Virus record (IMG/VR): IMGVR_UViG_3300005512_005684
Coordinates: 39,003-103,002 of that record
DNA: 64,000 bases
Direction: 5' to 3' (one strand)
From: a virus
Taxonomy: Duplodnaviria > Heunggongvirae > Uroviricota > Caudoviricetes
Made by a program: the position numbers and the translations under genes
Shown here: one piece after another, positions 56,170 through 62,452 of the stretch
Layout: every line of letters starts with the position of its first letter
Numbering within the stretch: the stretch's first letter is position 1
Notes under the pieces: generated by a model
Databases searched by the model: none
What the model was told of the DNA's origin: nothing
The model's input: the letters and a program-made list of their open reading frames with translations, nothing else

Positions 56170-57435
56170 ATGGGCATATTTCTTGCTCAGTCGCTCTACC
56201 GGATTTCGGAGCGGCTCGGGGAGCTTCCCAAGGTCTTCATTGAGACGGGGACGTGGAAGGGTCAAAGTATCCGCAATGTCCAAACAACGGGTATTTTCCA
56301 GGAGCTTCACACCATAGAGCTATCTGAGACGCTCTATAAGGCCGCACAAGAGCCTCTGACGGGTTTGGGGGTGCAATGTCACCTTGGGGACTCAAAGCGT
56401 CTCCTGAAGCGTCTGGGAAGCTCCTACGACCAACCGGTGTGCTTTTACCTGGACGCACACTTTTGTAAGGAAAAGAGCGGTGAGGGAGCTATTGGATTTC
56501 CGCTTTGGTCGGAAATGGATTACGTGCGTGGTCGAGGTCTGGCGGACGTGGTGATCATTGACGACACCCATACCTTTGGCAAGCGTCGGCCTGACTTGAA
56601 GGGGAAGCTGGAAGGTGGGAGTTGGGAGTCAGTGACAAAAGCGCGCATCCTGGATTTCTTCGAGGGAAGGGTAGTCGATTCCTTCGAGATACAGGACATG
56701 TTCGTGGTGAAGCTGAAACCCGGGCCGAAACTCGTGGAAATCTTGGTGCCGTGCTACAAGCGGATCGAATACACGGAGCGGTACGTTCCCCTTTTGATCG
56801 AACGGACAGATCATCCTGGTCGGAGGATTGTCTTGGTCGATGACGGGTCGTGTGACCAGACAGGGGAAAGACTGGAAGCCATTGCTCAGAGCCACGAGGG
56901 TGTGGTCGCGCGTGTGTATCCCGAGAACAAGGGTCTGCGTTTTCGAGTCCTGGAGTTCTGGCTTCAGTCTCCGGCTTCCATTCTGGCAAAGATGGACAAC
57001 GATTGCATCGTGCCGGAAGGCTGGCTGACGAAACTTGTCGAAATCTTAGACGAGTGCCCGGAACTCGGCATTGTCTCTCCGCTCATTAACGTGGCGTCAG
57101 TTCGTGGGCAAGAGTTATACGGAGAGACGATTGTGATCGGTCGGGACGTTGGTAAGCGGTACTGGGAAGCAGAGCGGATGGGTGGCTTGTGGTGCATGAA
57201 GCGACAAGTCATTGACTCGTTTCCGCTGGAGAAAAAGTCCACGGAGGCGACCCCGTACGTCAAAGGGGCTTGGGAACTTATGTGCGAGGTCAAAGCGGCG
57301 AGTGGTATGCAGACAGGGTGGTTGCCGGAGGTGGTGGTAGAGCACGTGGGTTGTGAGACGGAGAGACACCCAGAACGTGTCAATACGCCGGAGCACGACC
57401 AGTACGTTAAAGGGCGAATCGCGACGAACAGGTAA
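56170..57435 (+). CDS. methyltransferase-like domain fused to a GT2 glycosyltransferase
   Basis: FIETGTWKG, TIEL, GDS, FYLDAH; then ILVPCYKR, VLVDDGS, KMDND. Confidence 0.8.
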   Translation: MGIFLAQSLYRISERLGELPKVFIETGTWKGQSIRNVQTTGIFQELHTIELSETLYKAAQEPLTGLGVQCHLGDSKRLLKRLGSSYDQPVCFYLDAHFCKEKSGEGAIGFPLWSEMDYVRGRGLADVVIIDDTHTFGKRRPDLKGKLEGGSWESVTKARILDFFEGRVVDSFEIQDMFVVKLKPGPKLVEILVPCYKRIEYTERYVPLLIERTDHPGRRIVLVDDGSCDQTGERLEAIAQSHEGVVARVYPENKGLRFRVLEFWLQSPASILAKMDNDCIVPEGWLTKLVEILDECPELGIVSPLINVASVRGQELYGETIVIGRDVGKRYWEAERMGGLWCMKRQVIDSFPLEKKSTEATPYVKGAWELMCEVKAASGMQTGWLPEVVVEHVGCETERHPERVNTPEHDQYVKGRIATNR

Positions 57436-57441
57436 GTGTCC

Positions 57442-58143
57442 ATGAAGGTAGAGGTTTTGGTTCCGTGTTACAAGCGTGTCGAGTACACGCGCCGGTATCT
57501 TCCGCCGCTGATTGAGAACACGCGGTACCCGGACGTTCATTTTCGTTTGGTCGATGACGGTTCGCAGGATGGTACGGCCGAGTTTCTTCAATCACTCGCC
57601 GAACAACATGACAATGTGAAAGCGGATGCTTTTCAGGTCAACTTCGGCCTGCGTTGGCGCATCCTGGAGTTCTGGGACAGTTCCGATGCTCCTATTCTGG
57701 CGAAGATGGACAACGACTGTGAAGTGCCGGAAGGCTGGCTGACGAAACTTGTCGAGACCTTGGAAGCGTGTCCAGAGCTTGGTATCGTCTCACCGGTCAT
57801 TCATACAGTGTGGATTGATGGTGATACTCTCATGGCTCCGCAGGGGAAGATCGGATTCAACCGCGGGAGGAAGTATTGGGAAGCTCTGACTATCGGCGGC
57901 TTGTGGTGCATGAAGCGGTCGGTACTCGAATCTCCGAGCGACTTTGTGAAGGGGAAGGATGATGGTATTACTGGAGCCCACGAGCTAATCAAAGCCCTTC
58001 AGTCTCAGGGGGTCGTAATGGGTTGGCTTCCCGAGGTGGTCGTTCAGCATGTGGGGTATCACAAGGGGACGCACGGGGACTACATAGATTCTCCCGAACA
58101 TCGTGAGTACAACCGAAGACGTGGCGGTAGAAAGATGAAATAG
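57442..58143 (+). CDS. GT2 glycosyltransferase (paralog of the C-terminal half of 56170)
   Basis: VLVPCYKR, LVDDGS, KMDNDCEVPEGWLTKLVE, GGLWCMKR shared with the upstream gene. Confidence 0.85.
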   Translation: MKVEVLVPCYKRVEYTRRYLPPLIENTRYPDVHFRLVDDGSQDGTAEFLQSLAEQHDNVKADAFQVNFGLRWRILEFWDSSDAPILAKMDNDCEVPEGWLTKLVETLEACPELGIVSPVIHTVWIDGDTLMAPQGKIGFNRGRKYWEALTIGGLWCMKRSVLESPSDFVKGKDDGITGAHELIKALQSQGVVMGWLPEVVVQHVGYHKGTHGDYIDSPEHREYNRRRGGRKMK

Positions 58144-58491
58144 ATGCCCACGAAGATGTCCTACAGTGAGTTGGTCGAGGCTACTTCCACGGAGGACTTG
58201 TTGTCGCTATTGATCCATAGTCAGCTTACGGAGGTTCAAGACTTCCTTCGTGACCGATTGGACAACAACATGGAAGAGTGGAGTGTTGAACGAGACGGGA
58301 GTTGCATAGTTATGGTGTCCAGCGGTGGGGAGCGAGCCAGTGTGTCTTTCGAGGCGGCGTTCTATGTATGCTGGAAGAAATACGGGACGGCGGAGACCTT
58401 GGCGACGTTCTTTGCTGGAGTGATCAAAGCGCGGGTGATCAAGTTGGTCGAGGATGGTGTGGTGTTCATGGGTGTGGTCGGTCGCTCATAG
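58144..58491 (+). CDS. hypothetical protein
   Basis: ATG immediately after the GT2 stop. Confidence 0.5.
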   Translation: MPTKMSYSELVEATSTEDLLSLLIHSQLTEVQDFLRDRLDNNMEEWSVERDGSCIVMVSSGGERASVSFEAAFYVCWKKYGTAETLATFFAGVIKARVIKLVEDGVVFMGVVGRS

Positions 58492-58563
58492 GTTATGGTG
58501 GTGTGCTTCACGATGTTGCAAGGCGACCTTCGACGTGTGTCGTTGGCCGCTTTTTCATGGGCC

Positions 58564-58716
58564 GAATTATTCGCAAATAATTCGTTTGAAAGTCGCGAAA
58601 AATCGGTTTGACACCCGAGACAGGATAGTGATACTGAGCGACCGTCGATACGGGTTATCTAGCAGGGTAGGTATCAGAGAAAACTCGTTTGACAAACGAT
58701 GGATGATTGGTAGCTT
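58564..58716 (+). promoter_or_regulatory. operator-like palindrome plus two tandem sigma70-type promoters
   Basis: GAATTATT-cgca-AATAATTC (58564-58583); TTGACA (58608)-16 nt-GATACT; TTGACA (58689)-16 nt-TAGCTT preceded by TG. Confidence 0.55.
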
Positions 58717-58934
58717 TCGAGACAGTGAGGTTGGGCTTGTAAGCGACAAGGAAGACAATACATCTGGTTTCATTTGGGTCTCCCTTTGATGATTGAAAGG
58801 AGGTGATCAACGGTCCCAAAGTCTGTACGTTGCGGCCATCGGCTGCGTTAGGTTAGGTCTGCTTTTGCTATGATGCCGGTGTTGTATCCGGTTGGCAATG
58901 TTTGTTGTGTCTTTTGCTATGGGGGATAGGTTCA

Positions 58935-59669
58935 ATGCCTACGAAGTCAAGTACGAATGGGAACGGTGACGCTCTTGCTTTGGGGAGTGCAGTTCGGTAC
59001 GAAGTGACCGGTGTCTCGAAGTCGAGGATTCTCTATCATCGGCGAATGGATCCACCTGAAGAGGTGAAATGGGCAGAGAAGTGCAAAAAGGAGGGCAAGG
59101 ATCCGAAGAAAACGGATAACGTTGCCGCCTTTGTGTACCGCTGTCCTGAGACGGGTAACATTATCATTCCGGCCAAGTGGCTCAAGGGAGCCATGTGTCA
59201 GGCGGTCAAGGGTGAAAAGGTCGAGGGGAAGGGCAACCTCGGTTGGCCAGGCAAAGTGAAGCCGGGTATTGCTGTGACTCCTGAGTGTATCGAGTACACA
59301 CCGGGTAAGAAAAGCCGTGACGGTGTGTTCGGTGAATGGGTTACGGTGAACGGGAAGCAGGTCTGGAGAGATCGTCCGTTCGTTGCACCCGGCACCGAGT
59401 TCAAGTTCGTCGTAGAGGTCACGGAGACCGAAGACATATCCGAGGAAGTCCTCATGTGGATTCTGAAGCGTGCCAGCCTTTTCGGCATTGGCGATAACCG
59501 TCCTGGCAAGAGTGGTGGGAGCTTTGGCCGGATCAGGTTCACGTCTCTTGCTCGGATCGACGAAGAGGAAGAGGACGAGCTTGTCGTGGTTGACAAACGG
59601 AAAAAGAAAAACGGCAAGCGCAAGAAAAAGCGTAACGGGAAGGTTTCCACTGGTATCGCTGTGGGGTAA
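58935..59669 (+). CDS. Cas7-like RAMP protein 1
   Basis: IIIPAKWLKGAM (RAMP P-x-x-x-L-K-G), RDRPFV..GTEFKFVVEV, terminal G-loop FGIGDNRPGKSGGSFGR, then an acidic/basic tail. Confidence 0.75.
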   Translation: MPTKSSTNGNGDALALGSAVRYEVTGVSKSRILYHRRMDPPEEVKWAEKCKKEGKDPKKTDNVAAFVYRCPETGNIIIPAKWLKGAMCQAVKGEKVEGKGNLGWPGKVKPGIAVTPECIEYTPGKKSRDGVFGEWVTVNGKQVWRDRPFVAPGTEFKFVVEVTETEDISEEVLMWILKRASLFGIGDNRPGKSGGSFGRIRFTSLARIDEEEEDELVVVDKRKKKNGKRKKKRNGKVSTGIAVG

Positions 59670-59672
59670 ATC

Positions 59673-60227
59673 ATGGAACGCGACAATTACCTAAAGGCGA
59701 TTCTCGCGAGCACGAAACCCGTGTTCATGTCGCCCCGGACAGAGTTGTTGCCCCCTGACAGTAGTTCTGAAACGCTACGAAACGCTGCGAACGTAAGGCG
59801 CGTGGATGGTCAGGGGCGTCTGGGTCTTCCTGCGACTTGGCTGAAAAGGAGCTTGCGAGAGGCTTCCTCGAAGGTCAAGTTGTCTGGGACTCGGACGTGT
59901 CGATCCGCAGTTGATACAGGGGTGTTCGTCTTTCCAGACGAAGTGATCCCGTTCACCACGCACGAAGAGGAAACGTGTCTGCGTACGATGCGTATGCAAG
60001 GTATTGTGACCACGTGCGAGCGGTTGAAGGTGAAGTGGTGGGAACTTCCTCTCGTTTTGATGTATTCGCCGTCTATGATTACCCGAGAACAGTTGGAGGA
60101 AGTTCTCCGGGTGGCCGGTGAAGAAATCGGTGTCGGTACATACCGACCGCAGTTCGGTACGTTTGCGGTCAAAAAGTGCTTGAGAGTGAAGCAGAGTACT
60201 GCGGAGTCTCTCTTGGACGCCTATTGA
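59673..60227 (+). CDS. Cas7-like RAMP protein 2
   Basis: LGLPATWLKRSLREA, RLKVKWWELPLVLMY, G-loop AGEEIGVGTYRPQFGTF. Confidence 0.75.
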   Translation: MERDNYLKAILASTKPVFMSPRTELLPPDSSSETLRNAANVRRVDGQGRLGLPATWLKRSLREASSKVKLSGTRTCRSAVDTGVFVFPDEVIPFTTHEEETCLRTMRMQGIVTTCERLKVKWWELPLVLMYSPSMITREQLEEVLRVAGEEIGVGTYRPQFGTFAVKKCLRVKQSTAESLLDAY

Positions 60228-60480
60228 ATATCGTTGATTTTCGGTAGGTCAGGGTGTGTTTAGTTTCGGTATGTTGGTTTTCAGTTACGTTACGCTCCGT
60301 CATTTTACAATACCACTGCGTGTTGTCCCTGCTCCCTGGCGTTTGGGCCTTTTTTCGGTTCGATTCCGAATGGGAGCTTAGTGTTATGTTCCGTTTTGTC
60401 GTGGTTCGCTATGTTGGCTTGGGTTAAGGTTTAGTGTGTTCGGCTTTGTCGATTTACAACACCTTTGAGTGTTGTCCCCT

Positions 60481-60528
60481 ACTCCTGAGAGGTCTGGTCT
60501 TTCATTCGGTTCGACCCCGGACAGGAGT
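60481..60528 (+). ncRNA. representative tRNA-like element (acceptor stem, mini D-arm, T-arm; no anticodon arm)
   Basis: ACTCCTG-AGA GGTCTGG TCT-ttca-TTCGG TTCGACC CCGGA-CAGGAGT. Other copies start at 60331, 60721, 60857, 61005, 61432, 61582, 61729 and 61874. Confidence 0.7.
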
Positions 60529-61166
60529 GCTATCTGGTAAGGTCCGTTAAGTTTCGTTAAGGTATGATCAGTCATGTTGGGTTTTGACACTTTACAATAC
60601 CACTGCGTGTTGTCCCCTACTCCTGAGAGTATGGTGCGTTGGTGTAAGGTAAGGCGGGGTTGGTTGGGTTAAGTTAGCTTCAGGTGTGTCCTTTTACAAC
60701 ACCACTGCGTGTTGTCCCCTACTCCTGAGCGACGGGCTTTACTTGGTTCGACTCCGAGTGGGAGTGTGGTTTCGTTGCGTTTCGTTAAGTTATTCTACGT
60801 TATGTTGTGGTCCGTTCAGTTTCGTTCTCTTACAACACCACTGCGTGTTGTCCCCTACTCCTGAGAGGTCTGGTCTTTCGATCTGGTTCGATCCCGGACA
60901 GGAGTGTTAAGGTTAAGTTAGGTTCGGTCTAGTTCTAGTATGCTACGTTCTGTTTTGTTCTGTCAGGGTTCGTCTCTTTACAACACCACTGCGTGTTGTC
61001 CCCTACTCTTGAGCGACGGGTTTTCATTCGGTTCGATCCCGGACAGGGGTGTTGTCCGGTTGCGGTTAGTTTCGTTTAGGTGGGTTTTGTTGGTCTTTGT
61101 TCGGTTCCGTCACTTTACAACACCGTTGCGTGTTGTCCTTATTCCTGTGTTTTGATCGGAGTGAAA

Positions 61167-61424
61167 ATGGAGTCGATAGGAAGCGAACCGTTGTTTCAGA
61201 GGGCGAGAGCTAGAGCGTCTGAAGTGTTAAGTGTGGAGAGTGGGTTGGTAGTCTTGAGATTGAGAGTGTCGAGGATGGAAGGTAGTGGGAGGATTGATCA
61301 TTCTAGTTCGTTGAGACTGCAAGGGTGGCTTGTCGGTCTTATGGATTTGTTGAAGGAAGAAAAGCAGGCAAGTGTTGGTGCTATGCGACGTATAAAAAGT
61401 GTTGTCAGTGAGTTTGTTTGTTGA
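61167..61424 (+). CDS. small helical protein inside the array
   Basis: GGAG RBS; the only non-repetitive segment inside the array; 85 aa. Confidence 0.55.
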   Translation: MESIGSEPLFQRARARASEVLSVESGLVVLRLRVSRMEGSGRIDHSSSLRLQGWLVGLMDLLKEEKQASVGAMRRIKSVVSEFVC

Positions 61425-62000
61425 TTGTGTTACTCCTGAGAGGTCTGGTCTTTCGATCTGGTTCGATCCCGGACAGGAGTGTTGTCTGCCATGTTCCGTT
61501 AAGTTCCGTTCCGTTGCGTTGATGTGAGGTTTGTTGAGGTTCGTTCTGTCAATCTACAACACCTTTGAGTGTTGTCCCCTTACTCCTGAGCGACGGGTTT
61601 TTCTCGGTTCGACTCCGAGCGGGAGCTTAGAATTATGTTGGTGTCGGTTACGCTCTGTTCTGTTAGGTTCAGTTCAGTTACGTTCCGTTCGGTTGGGTCA
61701 ATCTACAACACCCTTGCGTGTTGTCCCTACTCTTGAGTGACGGGCTTTACCTGGTTCGACTCCGGGTGAGAGTGCTAGTGTTACGTTATGTTCCGTTTAG
61801 TTAGTTTCCGTTGAGCTTTTGGTTTGGTGCGTTGAGTTCGGTCGATTTACAACACCGTTGCGTGTTGTCCCTTACTCCTGAGAGGTCTGGTCTTTCATTC
61901 GGTTCGACCCCGGACAGGAGTTGAGTGTTGAGGTTAGTTATGTTCCGTTACGTTCCGTTCCGTCTCCGTTACGTTACGGTATGGTTCGTTACGTCAATCT

Positions 62001-62028
62001 ACAACACCGCTGCGTGTTGTCCCTTTTT
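62001..62028 (+). terminator. last array hairpin followed by CCCTTTTT (possible weak intrinsic terminator)
   Basis: 7-bp stem with a T5 run 3 nt downstream; no other hairpin copy has this run. Confidence 0.3.
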
Positions 62029-62041
62029 GGAGGTTTGTCGG

Positions 62042-62452
62042 ATGGAAGAAAGAAATCAGGATGTAGTCACTGCGGAAGCGAAGGCGATCAAAGCCTACGT
62101 CGATAAGACTTGGGGAAGGCATGTTAATACGGAACTCGAAGTACCGTTGCGAGACCTTTTCCCTAAGCCGGAAAAGAAACACCTGCATAGTATGTGGGAG
62201 AAAGGTGCAGCGGACGTAGTGGTAAGACGGAGGGACGGCAGCGTGTTGACAATCATTGAGCCAGGTGGTGGCCAGCATCTACGGCGAGAGCAGAACACGA
62301 GGGACAAAAAAAAGTTCGCCATTTGCTCTCAGAATGGCGTAGGGTGTCTTCAGATGTTGAACGGCGTCATGACTTCGTTACCGAAACGTCAGTGGCGGCG
62401 ATTCCTTGGAAGCTATATCTGGGGGAATGTCAAGGCGTCTGAGACCAACTGA
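62042..62452 (+). CDS. PD-(D/E)xK restriction-endonuclease-fold protein (DUF2726/Vsr-like)
   Basis: AADVVV...LTIIEPGGGQH...RDKKKFAICSQNGV; GGAGG RBS before ATG 62042. Confidence 0.6.
   Translation: MEERNQDVVTAEAKAIKAYVDKTWGRHVNTELEVPLRDLFPKPEKKHLHSMWEKGAADVVVRRRDGSVLTIIEPGGGQHLRREQNTRDKKKFAICSQNGVGCLQMLNGVMTSLPKRQWRRFLGSYIWGNVKASETN

What the first reader, a model, noticed from the sequence alone, without database searches (positions are those of the whole stretch)
58564..62452. Candidate phage RNA-guided system: two Cas7-like RAMPs, a non-CRISPR guide array with built-in tRNA-like spacers, and a nuclease-fold gene
Seen: two promoters, then RAMP1 (58935-59669) and RAMP2 (59673-60227). The array starts within about 15 nt of the RAMP2 stop and has 11 variable pentamer tracts, each capped by a conserved hairpin. 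A PD-(D/E)xK-fold gene starts 21 nt after the last hairpin. No cas1, cas2, cas3, cas5, cas6 or cas10 is visible in the window. Known: Cas7-family RAMPs polymerise periodically along guide RNA in Class 1 CRISPR effectors. Inference: the RAMPs coat processed array units as guides against nucleic acids of competing phages, mobile elements or the host. I recall a report of viral RAMP + GGY/NN repeat ('VIPR') systems but cannot verify it here. This locus would differ in having GTT-dominant pentamers, two RAMP paralogs, tRNA-like processing elements and an adjacent nuclease.
Basis: partly seen in the sequence, partly recalled or inferred. Interest (0 to 1): 0.95.

Follow-up and report, generated by a model that had tools for sequence, protein, structure and literature searches.

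The report
Jumbo-phage VIPR system with tRNA-like separators
This 331-kb uncultivated phage carries a VIPR system (a CRISPR-related, RNA-guided DNA-silencing system first described in 2026 preprints); it is a real but unusual example, with two different Cas7-like proteins, eleven guide RNAs built on G-U-Y instead of G-G-Y repeats, and small tRNA-like elements between the guides that probably let host tRNA-processing enzymes cut them apart.

Summary
Window 58935-62452 holds two Cas7-fold genes, then 11 units of 11-14 pentamers (NN-G-K-Y) each ending in a 7-bp hairpin, nine tRNA-like minihelices between units, and a DUF2726-like gene.

Both proteins belong to the Vipr family. Their models match Csm3, Cmr4 and type VII Cas7. 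They share the G-loop motif with the Vipr of SUSP1-type coliphages. Five relatives elsewhere sit beside pentamer guide arrays. The downstream gene has 54%-identical relatives in a conserved order: vipr, one guide RNA, then this gene. So this is a VIPR system (bioRxiv 10.64898/2026.04.26.720920), not a new class.

What differs:
- The second repeat base is U (71%), not G.
- There are two distantly related vipr genes. RAMP2 has replaced both residues that read the first G in SUSP1.
- There are 11 guides.
- tRNA-like elements (7-bp acceptor stem plus T-arm, with compensatory changes) separate the guides. None of the four VIPR preprints describes tRNA-like elements between guides.

Processing by RNase P or RNase Z, the role of RAMP1, and the targets are inferred or unknown. 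No target was found.

This scan has noted VIPR systems on other DNA before, two of them with tRNA-like guide tails. I did not check those notes.

The parts
58608..58635 (+). Best sigma-70-like promoter upstream of the operon (TTGACA, 16 nt, GATACT). A weaker site lies at 58552-58581.
   Evidence: Consensus scan, 10 of 12 matches. This is a consensus match only; function is not shown.
58935..59669 (+). vipr-A (RAMP1), 244 aa. A Cas7-fold Vipr homologue with an extended G-loop (GIGD187-N188-R189-P-GKSGG-SFGR) and a Lys/Arg-rich C-terminal tail.
   Evidence: AF2 model pLDDT 87.6. Foldseek PDB matches to type VII Cas7, Csm3 and Cmr4 at E 8e-7 to 1e-5. 72 HMMER relatives; the best, P0003, is 41% identical. 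Pairwise E 7e-5 to the phage HY02 Vipr.
59673..60227 (+). vipr-B (RAMP2), 184 aa. A Cas7-fold Vipr homologue with G-loop GVGT156-Y157-R158-P. The two residues that read G1 in SUSP1 (H17, D177) are Ser and Thr here.
   Evidence: AF2 model pLDDT 91.8. Foldseek matches to Csm3, type VII Cas7 and Cmr4 at E 4e-7. Matches the profile of RAMP1 relatives at E 1.4e-21. phrog_4652 at 3e-12. HY02 and SUSP1 Vipr G-loop at 44-47% identity. L014 Vipr at E 5e-19. Alignment A6.
60236..60328 (+). vrRNA unit 1: 13 pentamers plus the tail hairpin (60306-60328).
60331..60377 (+). tRNA-like element 1 (acceptor stem plus T-arm).
60381..60477 (+). vrRNA unit 2: 14 pentamers plus hairpin.
60481..60528 (+). tRNA-like element 2.
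60532..60615 (+). vrRNA unit 3: 11 pentamers plus hairpin. It is followed only by the 5' acceptor strand of a deleted tRNA-like element (60616-60629).
60630..60717 (+). vrRNA unit 4: 12 pentamers plus hairpin.
60721..60765 (+). tRNA-like element 4.
60768..60853 (+). vrRNA unit 5: 11 pentamers plus hairpin.
60857..60905 (+). tRNA-like element 5.
60908..61001 (+). vrRNA unit 6: 13 pentamers plus hairpin.
61005..61050 (+). tRNA-like element 6.
61053..61138 (+). vrRNA unit 7: 11 pentamers plus hairpin, followed by a U-rich stretch (terminator-like).
61139..61431 (+). Insert without 5-nt periodicity that splits the array. It holds an orphan 85-aa frame (61167-61424) with a GGAG ribosome-binding site, and is flanked by two copies of the tRNA-like 5' strand.
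   Evidence: No family match.
61432..61480 (+). tRNA-like element 7b. It stands alone, with no hairpin before it, directly upstream of unit 8.
61484..61577 (+). vrRNA unit 8: 13 pentamers plus hairpin.
61582..61626 (+). tRNA-like element 8.
61630..61726 (+). vrRNA unit 9: 14 pentamers plus hairpin.
61729..61773 (+). tRNA-like element 9.
61777..61870 (+). vrRNA unit 10: 13 pentamers plus hairpin.
61874..61921 (+). tRNA-like element 10.
61924..62022 (+). vrRNA unit 11: 14 pentamers plus hairpin, followed by CCCTTTTT (terminator-like) and the ribosome-binding site of the next gene.
   Evidence: The same 'hairpin, T-run, gene start' layout occurs in L014 and L017.
62045..62452 (+). vap-type accessory gene, 135 aa. 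DUF2726-like, so probably a Vsr/PD-(D/E)xK-type nuclease fold. D58, E73, G75, G76, H79, D88 and K91 are invariant in the family.
   Evidence: DUF2726 at E 8e-4, below Pfam's cut-off. 13 of 17 relatives hit DUF2726, best 2.4e-5. 65 of 100 Atlas feature hits are DUF2726 clusters. 54%-identical relative in the order vipr, vrRNA, vap. The fold was not modelled.

Best explanation
This is a phage-borne VIPR (Viral Interference Programmable Repeat) system.

PROPOSED MECHANISM.
1. A promoter near 58.6 kb drives an operon of two Vipr proteins (Cas7-like RAMPs), a polycistronic precursor of 11 guide RNAs (vrRNAs) and an accessory gene with a nuclease-type fold.
2. Each vrRNA is 11-14 pentamers (G-U/G-Y plus two free bases) followed by a 7-bp hairpin tail.
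3. By analogy with SUSP1 VIPR, one Vipr protomer binds each pentamer, buries the three fixed bases and presents the NN pairs. These read double-stranded DNA with one base skipped per pair. The target is then silenced, or cut if the DUF2726-like protein is an active nuclease.
4. RAMP2 is the likely reader of the G-U-Y repeats.
5. The nine tRNA-like minihelices between units are most likely cut by host RNase P (5' side) and/or RNase Z (3' side), which releases unit-length guides. This would be a natural counterpart of engineered tRNA-guide polycistrons and of the hammerhead-separated vrRNA arrays already reported.

SHOWN HERE: the folds, family membership, repeat grammar, the structure and covariation of the tRNA-like elements, and the synteny.

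INFERRED: transcription, processing, binding, the targeting rule, the targets, and the division of labour between the two Viprs.
For: FOLD.
- RAMP1 and RAMP2 give confident models (pLDDT 87.6 and 91.8).
- The best PDB matches are all Cas7-type RAMPs, at E down to 4e-7.

FAMILY.
- RAMP2 matches the Vipr of phage HY02 and of SUSP1 itself over the G-loop.
- The HY02 gene is flanked by canonical GGY/NN guides. Its residues C173, D177, W178 and R179 match the numbering of the cryo-EM paper.
- RAMP2 hits the profile of RAMP1 relatives at E 1.4e-21.

SYNTENY. Relatives in L010, L014, L017, L034 and L036 all lie beside period-5 arrays. The downstream gene's relatives (up to 54% identity) follow the order vipr, one vrRNA, vap in six contigs.

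REPEAT GRAMMAR. There are 11-14 units per guide, three constrained and two free positions, a strict pyrimidine at position 5, and a conserved 3' hairpin. The preprint describes 9-16 units plus a tail.

READER OF THE REPEATS.
- RAMP2 has Ser and Thr at the two positions that bind G1 in SUSP1 (H17, D177).
- P0030 has the same substitutions, and its array is NN-G-T-N with T at 93%.

tRNA-LIKE ELEMENTS.
- The T-loop is GGTTCGAYYCC, as in the phage's own tRNAs.
- Twelve proposed pairs are 98% paired and five show compensatory changes. Shifted registers give 36-54% paired.
- A simple structural rule finds exactly these nine in the array, and none in seven other VIPR loci.
- Element 7b has no hairpin before it, and three units lack an element after them. 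So the element behaves as punctuation rather than as an obligatory part of each guide.

OTHER.
- No Cas1 or Cas6 in the genome.
- No self-targets under the 1-nt-skip rule, as the preprint reports for its systems.
Against: - There are no expression or processing data.
- ARAGORN in standard mode and Rfam do not call the elements as tRNAs. Minimum-free-energy folds of single copies agree on the closing stem but not on the inner arms.
- No target was found for guides 3, 8 or 9 in IMG/VR, or for guide 9 in the genome collection. The targeting rule is therefore untested for this G-U-Y variant.
- The link between the Ser/Thr residues and G-U repeats rests on one other locus. P0057, which has Thr at the D177 position (its H17-equivalent position was not aligned), has GG-containing repeats, apparently on the other strand.
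- The nuclease assignment is below Pfam's threshold, and the usual second acidic residue of the DUF559 motif is Gly here.
- No close relative of this array exists in IMG/VR or the metagenome collection, so conservation of the architecture cannot be checked.
Confidence: 0.85

Rival explanations
1. The tRNA-like elements are not excised separators. They are the structured 3' tails of the guides, the counterpart of the SUSP1 pseudoknot cap, and stay attached to the hairpin to cap the Vipr filament. Unit ends would be made by other nucleases or by RNase Z alone.
For: SUSP1 guides end in a structured tail that caps the filament. Two earlier notes of this scan describe actinophage VIPR guides that 'end in a tRNA-like module' (not checked here). 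In eight of nine cases the element directly follows a hairpin.
Against: Three of the 11 units (3, 7 and 11) have the hairpin but no intact element. Element 7b stands without a hairpin in front of unit 8. The hairpin, not the element, is therefore the invariant tail. Relatives with a single guide (L014, L017) have only a hairpin tail.
Confidence: 0.25
2. The two Vipr proteins are two separate effectors, not subunits of one filament. RAMP2 uses the 11 G-U-Y guides. RAMP1 keeps the canonical G1-reading His and Asp, and loads GGY-type guides supplied elsewhere, for example by a co-infecting element.
For: The two proteins are only distantly related to each other (E 3e-4). Each has closer relatives elsewhere: RAMP1 is 41% identical to P0003, whose array is GGY/NN; RAMP2 matches the L014 Vipr at E 5e-19. 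RAMP1 keeps H35 and D187, while RAMP2 has Ser and Thr. Guides used in trans between elements are described in 10.64898/2026.10.15.759431.
Against: The genes are 3 nt apart in one operon. No GGY array exists anywhere in the 331-kb genome. RAMP1 has Asn where 52 of 64 relatives have an aromatic residue that stacks on G2, which also fits a repeat without G2. A complex prediction gave weak support for RAMP1-RAMP2 contact: score 0.46 against a best control of 0.00. That mark was reached by 58 of 80 solved complexes and 2 of 110 mismatched pairs, but at 0.60 or under by only 7 of those 80 and by both mismatches. The runs share at least 62% of contacts and the partner's pLDDT is at least 76. The pass may reflect remembered Cas7-Cas7 complexes.
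Confidence: 0.3
3. The array is not a set of guides. It would be a DNA-level or decoy element, such as tRNA-like decoys against host tRNA-targeting defences or a protein-binding repeat, lying next to unrelated small genes by chance.
For: No RNA data are available. The phage carries 9 real tRNA genes and many counter-defence-like genes elsewhere.
Against: In six independent loci examined, Vipr homologues sit beside period-5 arrays. All elements are on one strand and co-oriented with the genes. The NN positions are free while three positions are fixed, exactly as in guides shown experimentally to work. The tRNA-like elements lack an anticodon arm.
Confidence: 0.03

Closest known systems
VIPR systems (Vipr + vrRNA + vap): bioRxiv 10.64898/2026.04.26.720920, with structures in 10.64898/2026.04.26.720927; type II exemplars are Escherichia phage SUSP1 and a Pseudomonas fulva prophage
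   Same: A small single-RRM Cas7-like protein with the G-loop motif G-x-G-D/T-aromatic-R-P and a thumb arginine. Guides of 11-14 pentamers with three fixed and two free bases, followed by a conserved structured tail. An accessory gene in the operon. Phage-encoded. No cas1, cas6 or CRISPR repeats. No self-targets.
   Different: The repeat is G-U/G-Y, not G-G-Y. There are two divergent vipr genes, whereas the preprint counts 670 Viprs in 667 systems. There are 11 guides in one array, against 4 in SUSP1. The tail is a simple hairpin, not a pseudoknot. tRNA-like elements lie between guides. The accessory gene is DUF2726-like, not a winged-helix or HTH protein. The host genome is a 331-kb phage.
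Single-guide 'vipr, vrRNA, DUF2726-like vap' loci in cellular-looking metagenome contigs (L014-L017 here); probably the nuclease-bearing VIPR types III-V of the preprint, type not assignable from the text
   Same: The same gene order (vipr, guide, vap). The vap is 44-54% identical. The hairpin tail is followed by a T-run directly before the vap start. The Vipr is related to RAMP2 (29% identity, E 5e-19).
   Different: Those loci have one vipr, one canonical GGY/NN guide and no tRNA-like element, and they lie among cellular genes (dnaA, clpXP). Here the guide slot has grown to 11 guides, a second vipr has been added, and the locus is viral.
Hammerhead-ribozyme-interspersed vrRNA arrays (types I and V, fig. 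S19 of the VIPR preprint), engineered polycistronic tRNA-gRNA arrays, and the tRNA punctuation model of mitochondrial transcripts (the last two from my own knowledge)
   Same: A self-contained processing element placed between successive guides, so that one transcript yields many unit-length RNAs.
   Different: The element here is a 45-49 nt tRNA-like minihelix that would borrow host RNase P or RNase Z, not a self-cleaving ribozyme. Unlike the engineered arrays, it is natural and lacks the D and anticodon arms.
Non-canonical VIPR repeat units (GAC/NN, CAC/NN, WGT/NN, TGH/NN): bioRxiv 10.64898/2026.10.21.760802
   Same: Period-5 arrays with a fixed trinucleotide other than GGY, next to Vipr-fold proteins.
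   Different: G-U-Y with a strict pyrimidine at the third position is not among the examples named in the text. The figures could not be read.
Class 1 CRISPR-Cas effector backbones (Csm3, Cmr4, type VII Cas7)
   Same: The RAMP fold. One protomer per fixed-length stretch of guide. A thumb that breaks the guide-target duplex periodically. More than one RAMP paralogue in the locus.
   Different: No CRISPR repeats, no adaptation genes, no Cas5, Cas6, Cas10 or Cas3, a 5-nt rather than 6-nt register, and guide specificity carried by 2 of every 5 bases.

Membership tests
VIPR system | A Vipr protein with the RAMP fold (single RRM core, glycine-rich loop, thumb) | tested here: met
   Both models are confident and match Csm3, Cmr4 and type VII Cas7 at E 4e-7 to 1e-5. 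The G-loop and the thumb Arg are conserved in alignment A6.
VIPR system | Sequence homology to Vipr proteins that were characterised experimentally (SUSP1 clade) | tested here: met
   RAMP2 against HY02 Vipr: E 5e-11 pairwise, 47% identity over 45 aa. The SUSP1 record itself is hit at 44%. RAMP1: E 7e-5. Profile of 64 relatives against RAMP2: E 1.4e-21. phrog_4652 at 3e-12.
VIPR system | Guides of about 9-16 tandem pentamers, with three conserved and two hypervariable bases | tested here: met
   11 tracts of 11-14 pentamers. The NN positions carry about 0.02 bits and the fixed positions 0.8-1.4 bits.
VIPR system | The fixed trinucleotide is GGY | tested here: not met
   The second base is T in 71% and G in 21% of units. 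The preprints allow 'a related consensus', and non-canonical units are reported. This makes the locus a variant; it does not exclude it.
VIPR system | A conserved structured 3' tail after the repeat tract | tested here: met
   The 7-bp hairpin is present in all 11 units. The loop varies, and one stem C-to-U change keeps a G-U pair.
VIPR system | An accessory (vap) gene in the locus, and no CRISPR array or adaptation genes | tested here: met
   The DUF2726-like gene is conserved next to vipr in six other contigs. Cas1 and Cas6 are absent from the genome.
VIPR system | vrRNAs are expressed and co-purify with Vipr | not testable with these tools
VIPR system | Guides match natural targets under the NN-x (1-nt skip) rule | tested here: inconclusive
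   No self-match above shuffled controls. No exact 10-11 NN match for guides 3, 8 or 9. Twelve 8-NN hits all fail on extension. Only exact-pattern scans were possible.
tRNA (canonical cloverleaf) | Four-arm cloverleaf recognised by tRNA finders or the Rfam tRNA model | tested here: not met
   ARAGORN in standard mode finds none in the window. Rfam finds nothing at E up to 1. The elements are only 45-49 nt long.
tRNA-like minihelix (acceptor stem stacked on a T-arm; the minimal RNase P / RNase Z substrate, from my own knowledge) | A 7-bp acceptor stem plus a 5-bp T-stem closing a 7-nt UUCRANN loop, supported by covariation | tested here: met
   98% of cells are paired, and 5 of 12 pairs show compensatory changes. 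Shifted controls give 36-54%. The rule-based scan finds exactly nine. Cleavage itself was not testable.
DUF2726 / Vsr-like PD-(D/E)xK nucleases | A match to the family model above its threshold, with catalytic acidic residues present | tested here: inconclusive
   E 8e-4, at 19.5 bits against a cut-off of 24.7. 13 of 17 relatives hit weakly. Atlas features favour DUF2726. D58, E73, H79 and K91 are invariant, but the motif reads E-P-G-G rather than E-x-D-G. No solved relative was found by sequence. The fold was not modelled.
Class 1 CRISPR-Cas | A CRISPR repeat-spacer array, Cas6 or Cas5 processing or capping, and Cas1-Cas2 adaptation | tested here: not met
   No Cas1 or Cas6 in 331 kb. PADLOC models give no hit. 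The array has a 5-nt grammar, not repeat-spacer units.

The most novel reading that the evidence does not exclude
The locus is a natural tRNA-punctuated guide-RNA polycistron whose guides are loaded into a heteromeric filament of two specialised RAMPs. RAMP2 would read the G-U-Y repeats. RAMP1, with its basic tail, would act as a cap, nucleator or alternating subunit. That would be a living intermediate between one-protein VIPR and multi-RAMP class 1 CRISPR effectors, and the first natural case of host tRNA-processing enzymes maturing guides of an RNA-guided DNA-targeting system.
Probability: 0.3. Interest if true: 0.75.

Novelty: new variant of a known kind. Interest (0 to 1): 0.55.

Why it matters
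VIPR is only months old as a concept, and only type II systems with one Vipr and GGY repeats have been studied at the bench. This locus offers three handles on it.

1. REPEAT RECOGNITION. A G-U-Y repeat is paired with a Vipr in which both G1-contacting residues are changed. This gives a direct test of how the protein reads the fixed bases, and of whether orthogonal Vipr/guide pairs can be built.

2. TWO RAMPs IN ONE OPERON. Two distantly related Viprs in one operon bear on how multi-RAMP CRISPR effectors could have arisen.

3. GUIDE MATURATION. tRNA-like separators would show that phages themselves arrived at the tRNA-guide multiplexing trick used in genome engineering. They would also provide a compact 45-49 nt natural processing module.

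If the DUF2726-like partner is an active nuclease, this would also be a phage-borne VIPR that cuts rather than silences. The preprint associates that behaviour with host-encoded types.

Tried and rejected
- HOMOLOGUE SEARCHES. Word-based searches for RAMP1 and RAMP2 found only the proteins themselves. The exhaustive HMMER search was needed. Pfam and PADLOC gave nothing for either RAMP.
- CLOSE RELATIVES OF THE ARRAY. The hairpin pattern had 0 hits in IMG/VR. Its 14 single hits in metagenomes have no pentamer tracts, so they are chance matches. The RAMP2 peptide scan of IMG/VR found no relative. The large alignment was too diverse for a locus scan; a smaller one gave two canonical GGC/NN loci.
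- TARGETS. Exact NN-x patterns for guides 9, 8 and 3 in IMG/VR, and for guide 9 in the genome collection, gave 0 hits. An 8-NN core of guide 9 gave 12 hits, all with random flanks. Own-genome matches equal those of shuffled guides. Mismatch-tolerant searches of the collections were not possible.
- tRNA CALLING. The Rfam evalue-mode search of the locus gave nothing. ARAGORN in mitochondrial mode called one dubious 70-nt 'tRNA' spanning hairpin 2 plus element 2; I do not rely on it.
- SINGLE-SEQUENCE FOLDS. Folds of the tRNA-like elements were not better than shuffles for most copies. The case rests on covariation.
- UPSTREAM GUIDE. No period-5 signal at 58564-58935. The borderline tract at 58446-58495 lies inside a coding frame.
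- 85-aa FRAME. No relatives were found.
- GORDONIA PHAGE HITS. Trine and UmaThurman were inspected to check the scan's earlier 'tRNA-like tail' notes. The matches are weak (E 0.04-0.7) and no array was seen in the stretch read, so this is not informative.
- A stray call to a non-existent tool accompanied.

Full report
WHAT IS THERE

The window is bases 39003-103002 of a 331,348-base IMG/VR virus record, estimated 99% complete. Earlier notes of this scan describe it as an uncultivated large phage. On the + strand, after a sigma-70-like promoter (58608-58635), lie the following features:

- RAMP1: 58935-59669, 244 aa.
- RAMP2: 59673-60227, 184 aa, starting 3 nt after RAMP1.
- A non-coding array, starting 9 nt after RAMP2 and running to 62022.
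- A 135-aa gene: 62045-62452.

A regular expression finds exactly 11 copies of a hairpin, all on the + strand. The stem is ACAAYAC/GTGTTGT and the loop is 6 nt and variable. The genome has no other copy within two mismatches.

Each hairpin is preceded by a 61-76 nt tract with a strong 5-nt period:

- Autocorrelation is 0.51 at lags 5, 10 and 15, against 0.19-0.32 at other lags.
- A dynamic-programming parse gives 11-14 pentamers per tract.
- Positions 1-2 are free (about 0.02 bits).
- Position 3 is G (0.90).
- Position 4 is T (0.71) or G (0.21).
- Position 5 is T (0.86) or C (0.13), and never a purine.

The period-5 signal is confined to 60250-62000, apart from a 290-nt insert. A scan of both strands of the genome finds such tracts nowhere else, apart from one borderline hit at 58446.

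THE PROTEINS ARE VIPR-FAMILY RAMPs

Word-based searches found nothing. An exhaustive HMMER search gave 72 relatives of RAMP1. With these as the alignment, both proteins fold confidently (pLDDT 87.6 and 91.8). Their best PDB matches are all Cas7-type subunits: type VII Cas7, Csm3 and Cmr4, at E 4e-7 to 1e-5. The caveat is that the RAMP2 model used the alignment of RAMP1 relatives. However, RAMP2 matches a profile built without it at E 1.4e-21.

RAMP2 also hits phrog_4652 (3e-12). By tblastn it hits one hypothetical protein of 128 phage records, mostly Felixounavirus-type coliphages and including SUSP1 itself.

In phage HY02 that gene (gp089) is flanked on both sides by textbook GGY/NN repeat RNAs. 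Its residues C173, D177, W178 and R179 carry the same numbers as in the cryo-EM paper on SUSP1 Vipr. HY02 gp089 is thus a type II Vipr, and our two proteins share its G-loop motif.

THE LITERATURE

Its main points are:

- The system is a Vipr RAMP plus vrRNAs of 9-16 GGY/NN pentamers with a conserved 3' tail.
- One protomer binds per repeat.
- The NN pairs read double-stranded DNA with one base skipped.
- Natural targets are competing phages and satellites.
- There are seven types, with accessory vap genes. Types III-V carry predicted nucleases or helicases.
- Array forms include hammerhead-separated arrays.

A structure paper shows the following contacts (10.64898/2026.04.26.720927):

- G1 is read by H17 and D177.
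- G2 lies between R138 and W178.
- Y3 sits in a pocket that excludes purines.

Two later preprints add competition by satellite guides (10.64898/2026.10.15.759431) and non-canonical repeat units such as GAC/NN, WGT/NN and TGH/NN (10.64898/2026.10.21.760802). In three of the four, 'tRNA' does not occur in the main text, and in the fourth 'tRNA-like' does not. I could not see the figures or supplementary files.

SYNTENY ELSEWHERE

- The closest relative of RAMP1 is P0003 (41% identity). It lies on eight short contigs directly after a 135-aa DUF2726/DUF559-like gene and downstream of a promoter and three GGY/NN guides with short hairpin tails.
- The downstream gene of our locus has 17 relatives. 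In six contigs a 173-aa gene precedes it.
- In L014 that protein is a Vipr (E 5e-19 to RAMP2). The roughly 95-nt gap holds one GGY/NN guide ending in a hairpin and a T-run, right at the start of the 54%-identical accessory gene. L017 has the same layout.
- An IMG/VR locus, L034, shows GGC/NN arrays on both sides of a vipr-vap pair.
- L036 has a long NN-G-T-N array upstream of Vipr P0030.

That test is passed in every locus where flanking DNA was available.

Our locus has the order vipr, guide, vap of the L014 type. The guide slot has expanded to 11 guides and a second vipr has been added in front.

THE REPEAT VARIANT AND WHICH PROTEIN READS IT

Position 5 is strictly a pyrimidine, which fits the Y3 pocket. 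Position 3 fits G1. Position 4, which is G2 in SUSP1, is mostly U.

In alignment A6, the residues at the SUSP1 contact positions compare as follows:

| Protein | H17 position | D177 position | W178 position |
|---|---|---|---|
| RAMP1 | His35 | Asp187 | Asn188 |
| RAMP2 | Ser20 | Thr156 | Tyr157 |

At the W178 position, 52 of 64 relatives have an aromatic residue and only 2 have Asn.

P0030 has Ser and Thr at the same two positions as RAMP2, and the same GVGTYR loop. Its array has T at the second fixed position in 93% of units. This suggests that RAMP2 is the cognate reader of G-U-Y repeats.

This rests on one other locus. P0057, which has Thr at the D177 position (its H17-equivalent position was not aligned), has GG-containing repeats, apparently on the other strand.

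The two proteins are not a recent duplication. They match each other only at E 3e-4, and each has closer relatives elsewhere.

A complex prediction gave weak support for contact between them:

- The score was 0.46, against a best control of 0.00.
- That mark was reached by 58 of 80 solved complexes and 2 of 110 mismatched pairs.
- At 0.60 or under, it was reached by only 7 of those 80 and by both mismatches.
- The runs share at least 62% of contacts, and the partner's pLDDT is at least 76.

Because Cas7-Cas7 complexes are solved, this may reflect likeness rather than binding. Whether the two form one filament or two effectors is open.

THE tRNA-LIKE ELEMENTS

Nine elements of 45-49 nt lie between units. 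Each has three parts:

- A 7-bp closing stem.
- A 14-18 nt variable middle, in two subtypes.
- A 5-bp stem closing the loop UUCGAYY.

The loop has the sequence GGTTCGAYYCC, as in the phage's nine real tRNA genes.

On the nine copies the twelve proposed pairs are 98% paired, and five pairs show compensatory changes. Sliding the partner by 1-3 columns drops pairing to 36-54%. A rule-based scan recovers exactly these nine in the array and none in seven other VIPR loci.

They are not canonical tRNAs. ARAGORN and Rfam do not call them, and they lack the D and anticodon arms.

An acceptor stem stacked on a T-arm is, from established knowledge, the minimal substrate of RNase P and RNase Z. This is why I propose that host tRNA-processing enzymes cut the precursor at these sites.

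The distribution supports punctuation rather than an obligatory tail:

- All 11 units have the hairpin.
- Units 3, 7 and 11 lack an intact element after them.
- One element (61432-61480) has no hairpin in front. It sits between the insert and unit 8.
- The hairpins of units 7 and 11 are followed by U-rich runs and were flagged as terminator-like. The same layout precedes the accessory gene in L014 and L017.

Processing itself is inferred. The rival reading, that the elements stay attached as tails, remains possible. Two earlier, unchecked notes of this scan describe tRNA-like guide tails in actinophage VIPR loci.

THE ACCESSORY GENE

- It hits DUF2726 below threshold (E 8e-4).
- 13 of 17 relatives also hit DUF2726.
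- Atlas features point the same way.
- D58, E73, G75, G76, H79, D88 and K91 are invariant.

A nuclease-type fold is likely. Activity is unknown.

TARGETS

- No self-match exceeds shuffled guides under any skip rule, other than the trivial 3-skip self-hit. This agrees with the preprint.
- Exact-pattern scans for guides 3, 8 and 9 found nothing.
- Twelve short-core hits failed on extension.

Targets and host remain unknown.

VERDICT

This is a genuine VIPR system, so the class is already known, and this scan has met it on at least a dozen other genomes. It is a new variant in four respects:

- A G-U-Y repeat, with a matching change in the residues that read the repeat.
- Two divergent Viprs.
- An 11-guide array interrupted by an orphan frame.
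- tRNA-like punctuation.

The last two are not described in the text of the available preprints.

Noticed in passing
window 58446-58500, and 58530-58546: This is the only other stretch in the 331-kb genome with at least 7 of 10 in-phase G-[TG]-[TC] pentamers. It lies 440 nt upstream of vipr-A, inside the 3' end of the 115-aa frame 58144-58491. A terminator-like hairpin with a T-run follows it. It could be a degenerate upstream guide or a codon-composition accident.
   Followed up: partly
window 61139-61431: A 290-nt insert without 5-nt periodicity splits the array after unit 7. It carries an orphan 85-aa frame (61167-61424) with a GGAG ribosome-binding site. It is flanked by two copies of the tRNA-like 5' strand (TTAYTCCTG), which looks like an insertion or recombination scar. 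No family, fold or relative was found.
   Followed up: partly
window 60616-60629: Between units 3 and 4 only the 5' acceptor strand of a tRNA-like element survives. Guides 3 and 4 would therefore be released as a dimer if the elements are the only processing sites.
   Followed up: no
L036:1280-1674: A metagenome VIPR locus with a roughly 390-nt array of NN-G-T-N pentamers. AAGTA AAGTA A recurs as an apparent unit boundary. Its Vipr (P0030) shares the Ser/Thr substitutions and the GVGTYR loop with RAMP2.
   Followed up: partly
L037:296-455 and 1040-1098: The period-5 arrays flanking Vipr P0057 read as GG-containing pentamers only on the strand opposite to the vipr gene. This suggests divergent transcription of guides and protein.
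   Followed up: no
L014:5382-6987 (also L015, L016): The cellular-looking 'vipr, vrRNA, vap' cassette is directly followed by a DUF433 / DUF5615 (PIN-like) pair, probably a toxin-antitoxin module. It lies near dnaA and clpXP.
   Followed up: no
window 56170-58143: Two adjacent genes (421 and 235 aa) share a long similar segment (VPCYKR.EYT.RY.P.LIE ... LAKMDNDC.VPEGWLTKLVE). They are tandem paralogues of a glycosyltransferase-like domain just upstream of the VIPR locus.
   Followed up: no
genome C1:234359-239053 (outside the window): A cluster of nine tRNA genes (Leu, Met, Asn, Gly, Phe, Val x2, Ile, Trp). Their T-loops have the same GGTTCRA motif as the array's tRNA-like elements.
   Followed up: partly
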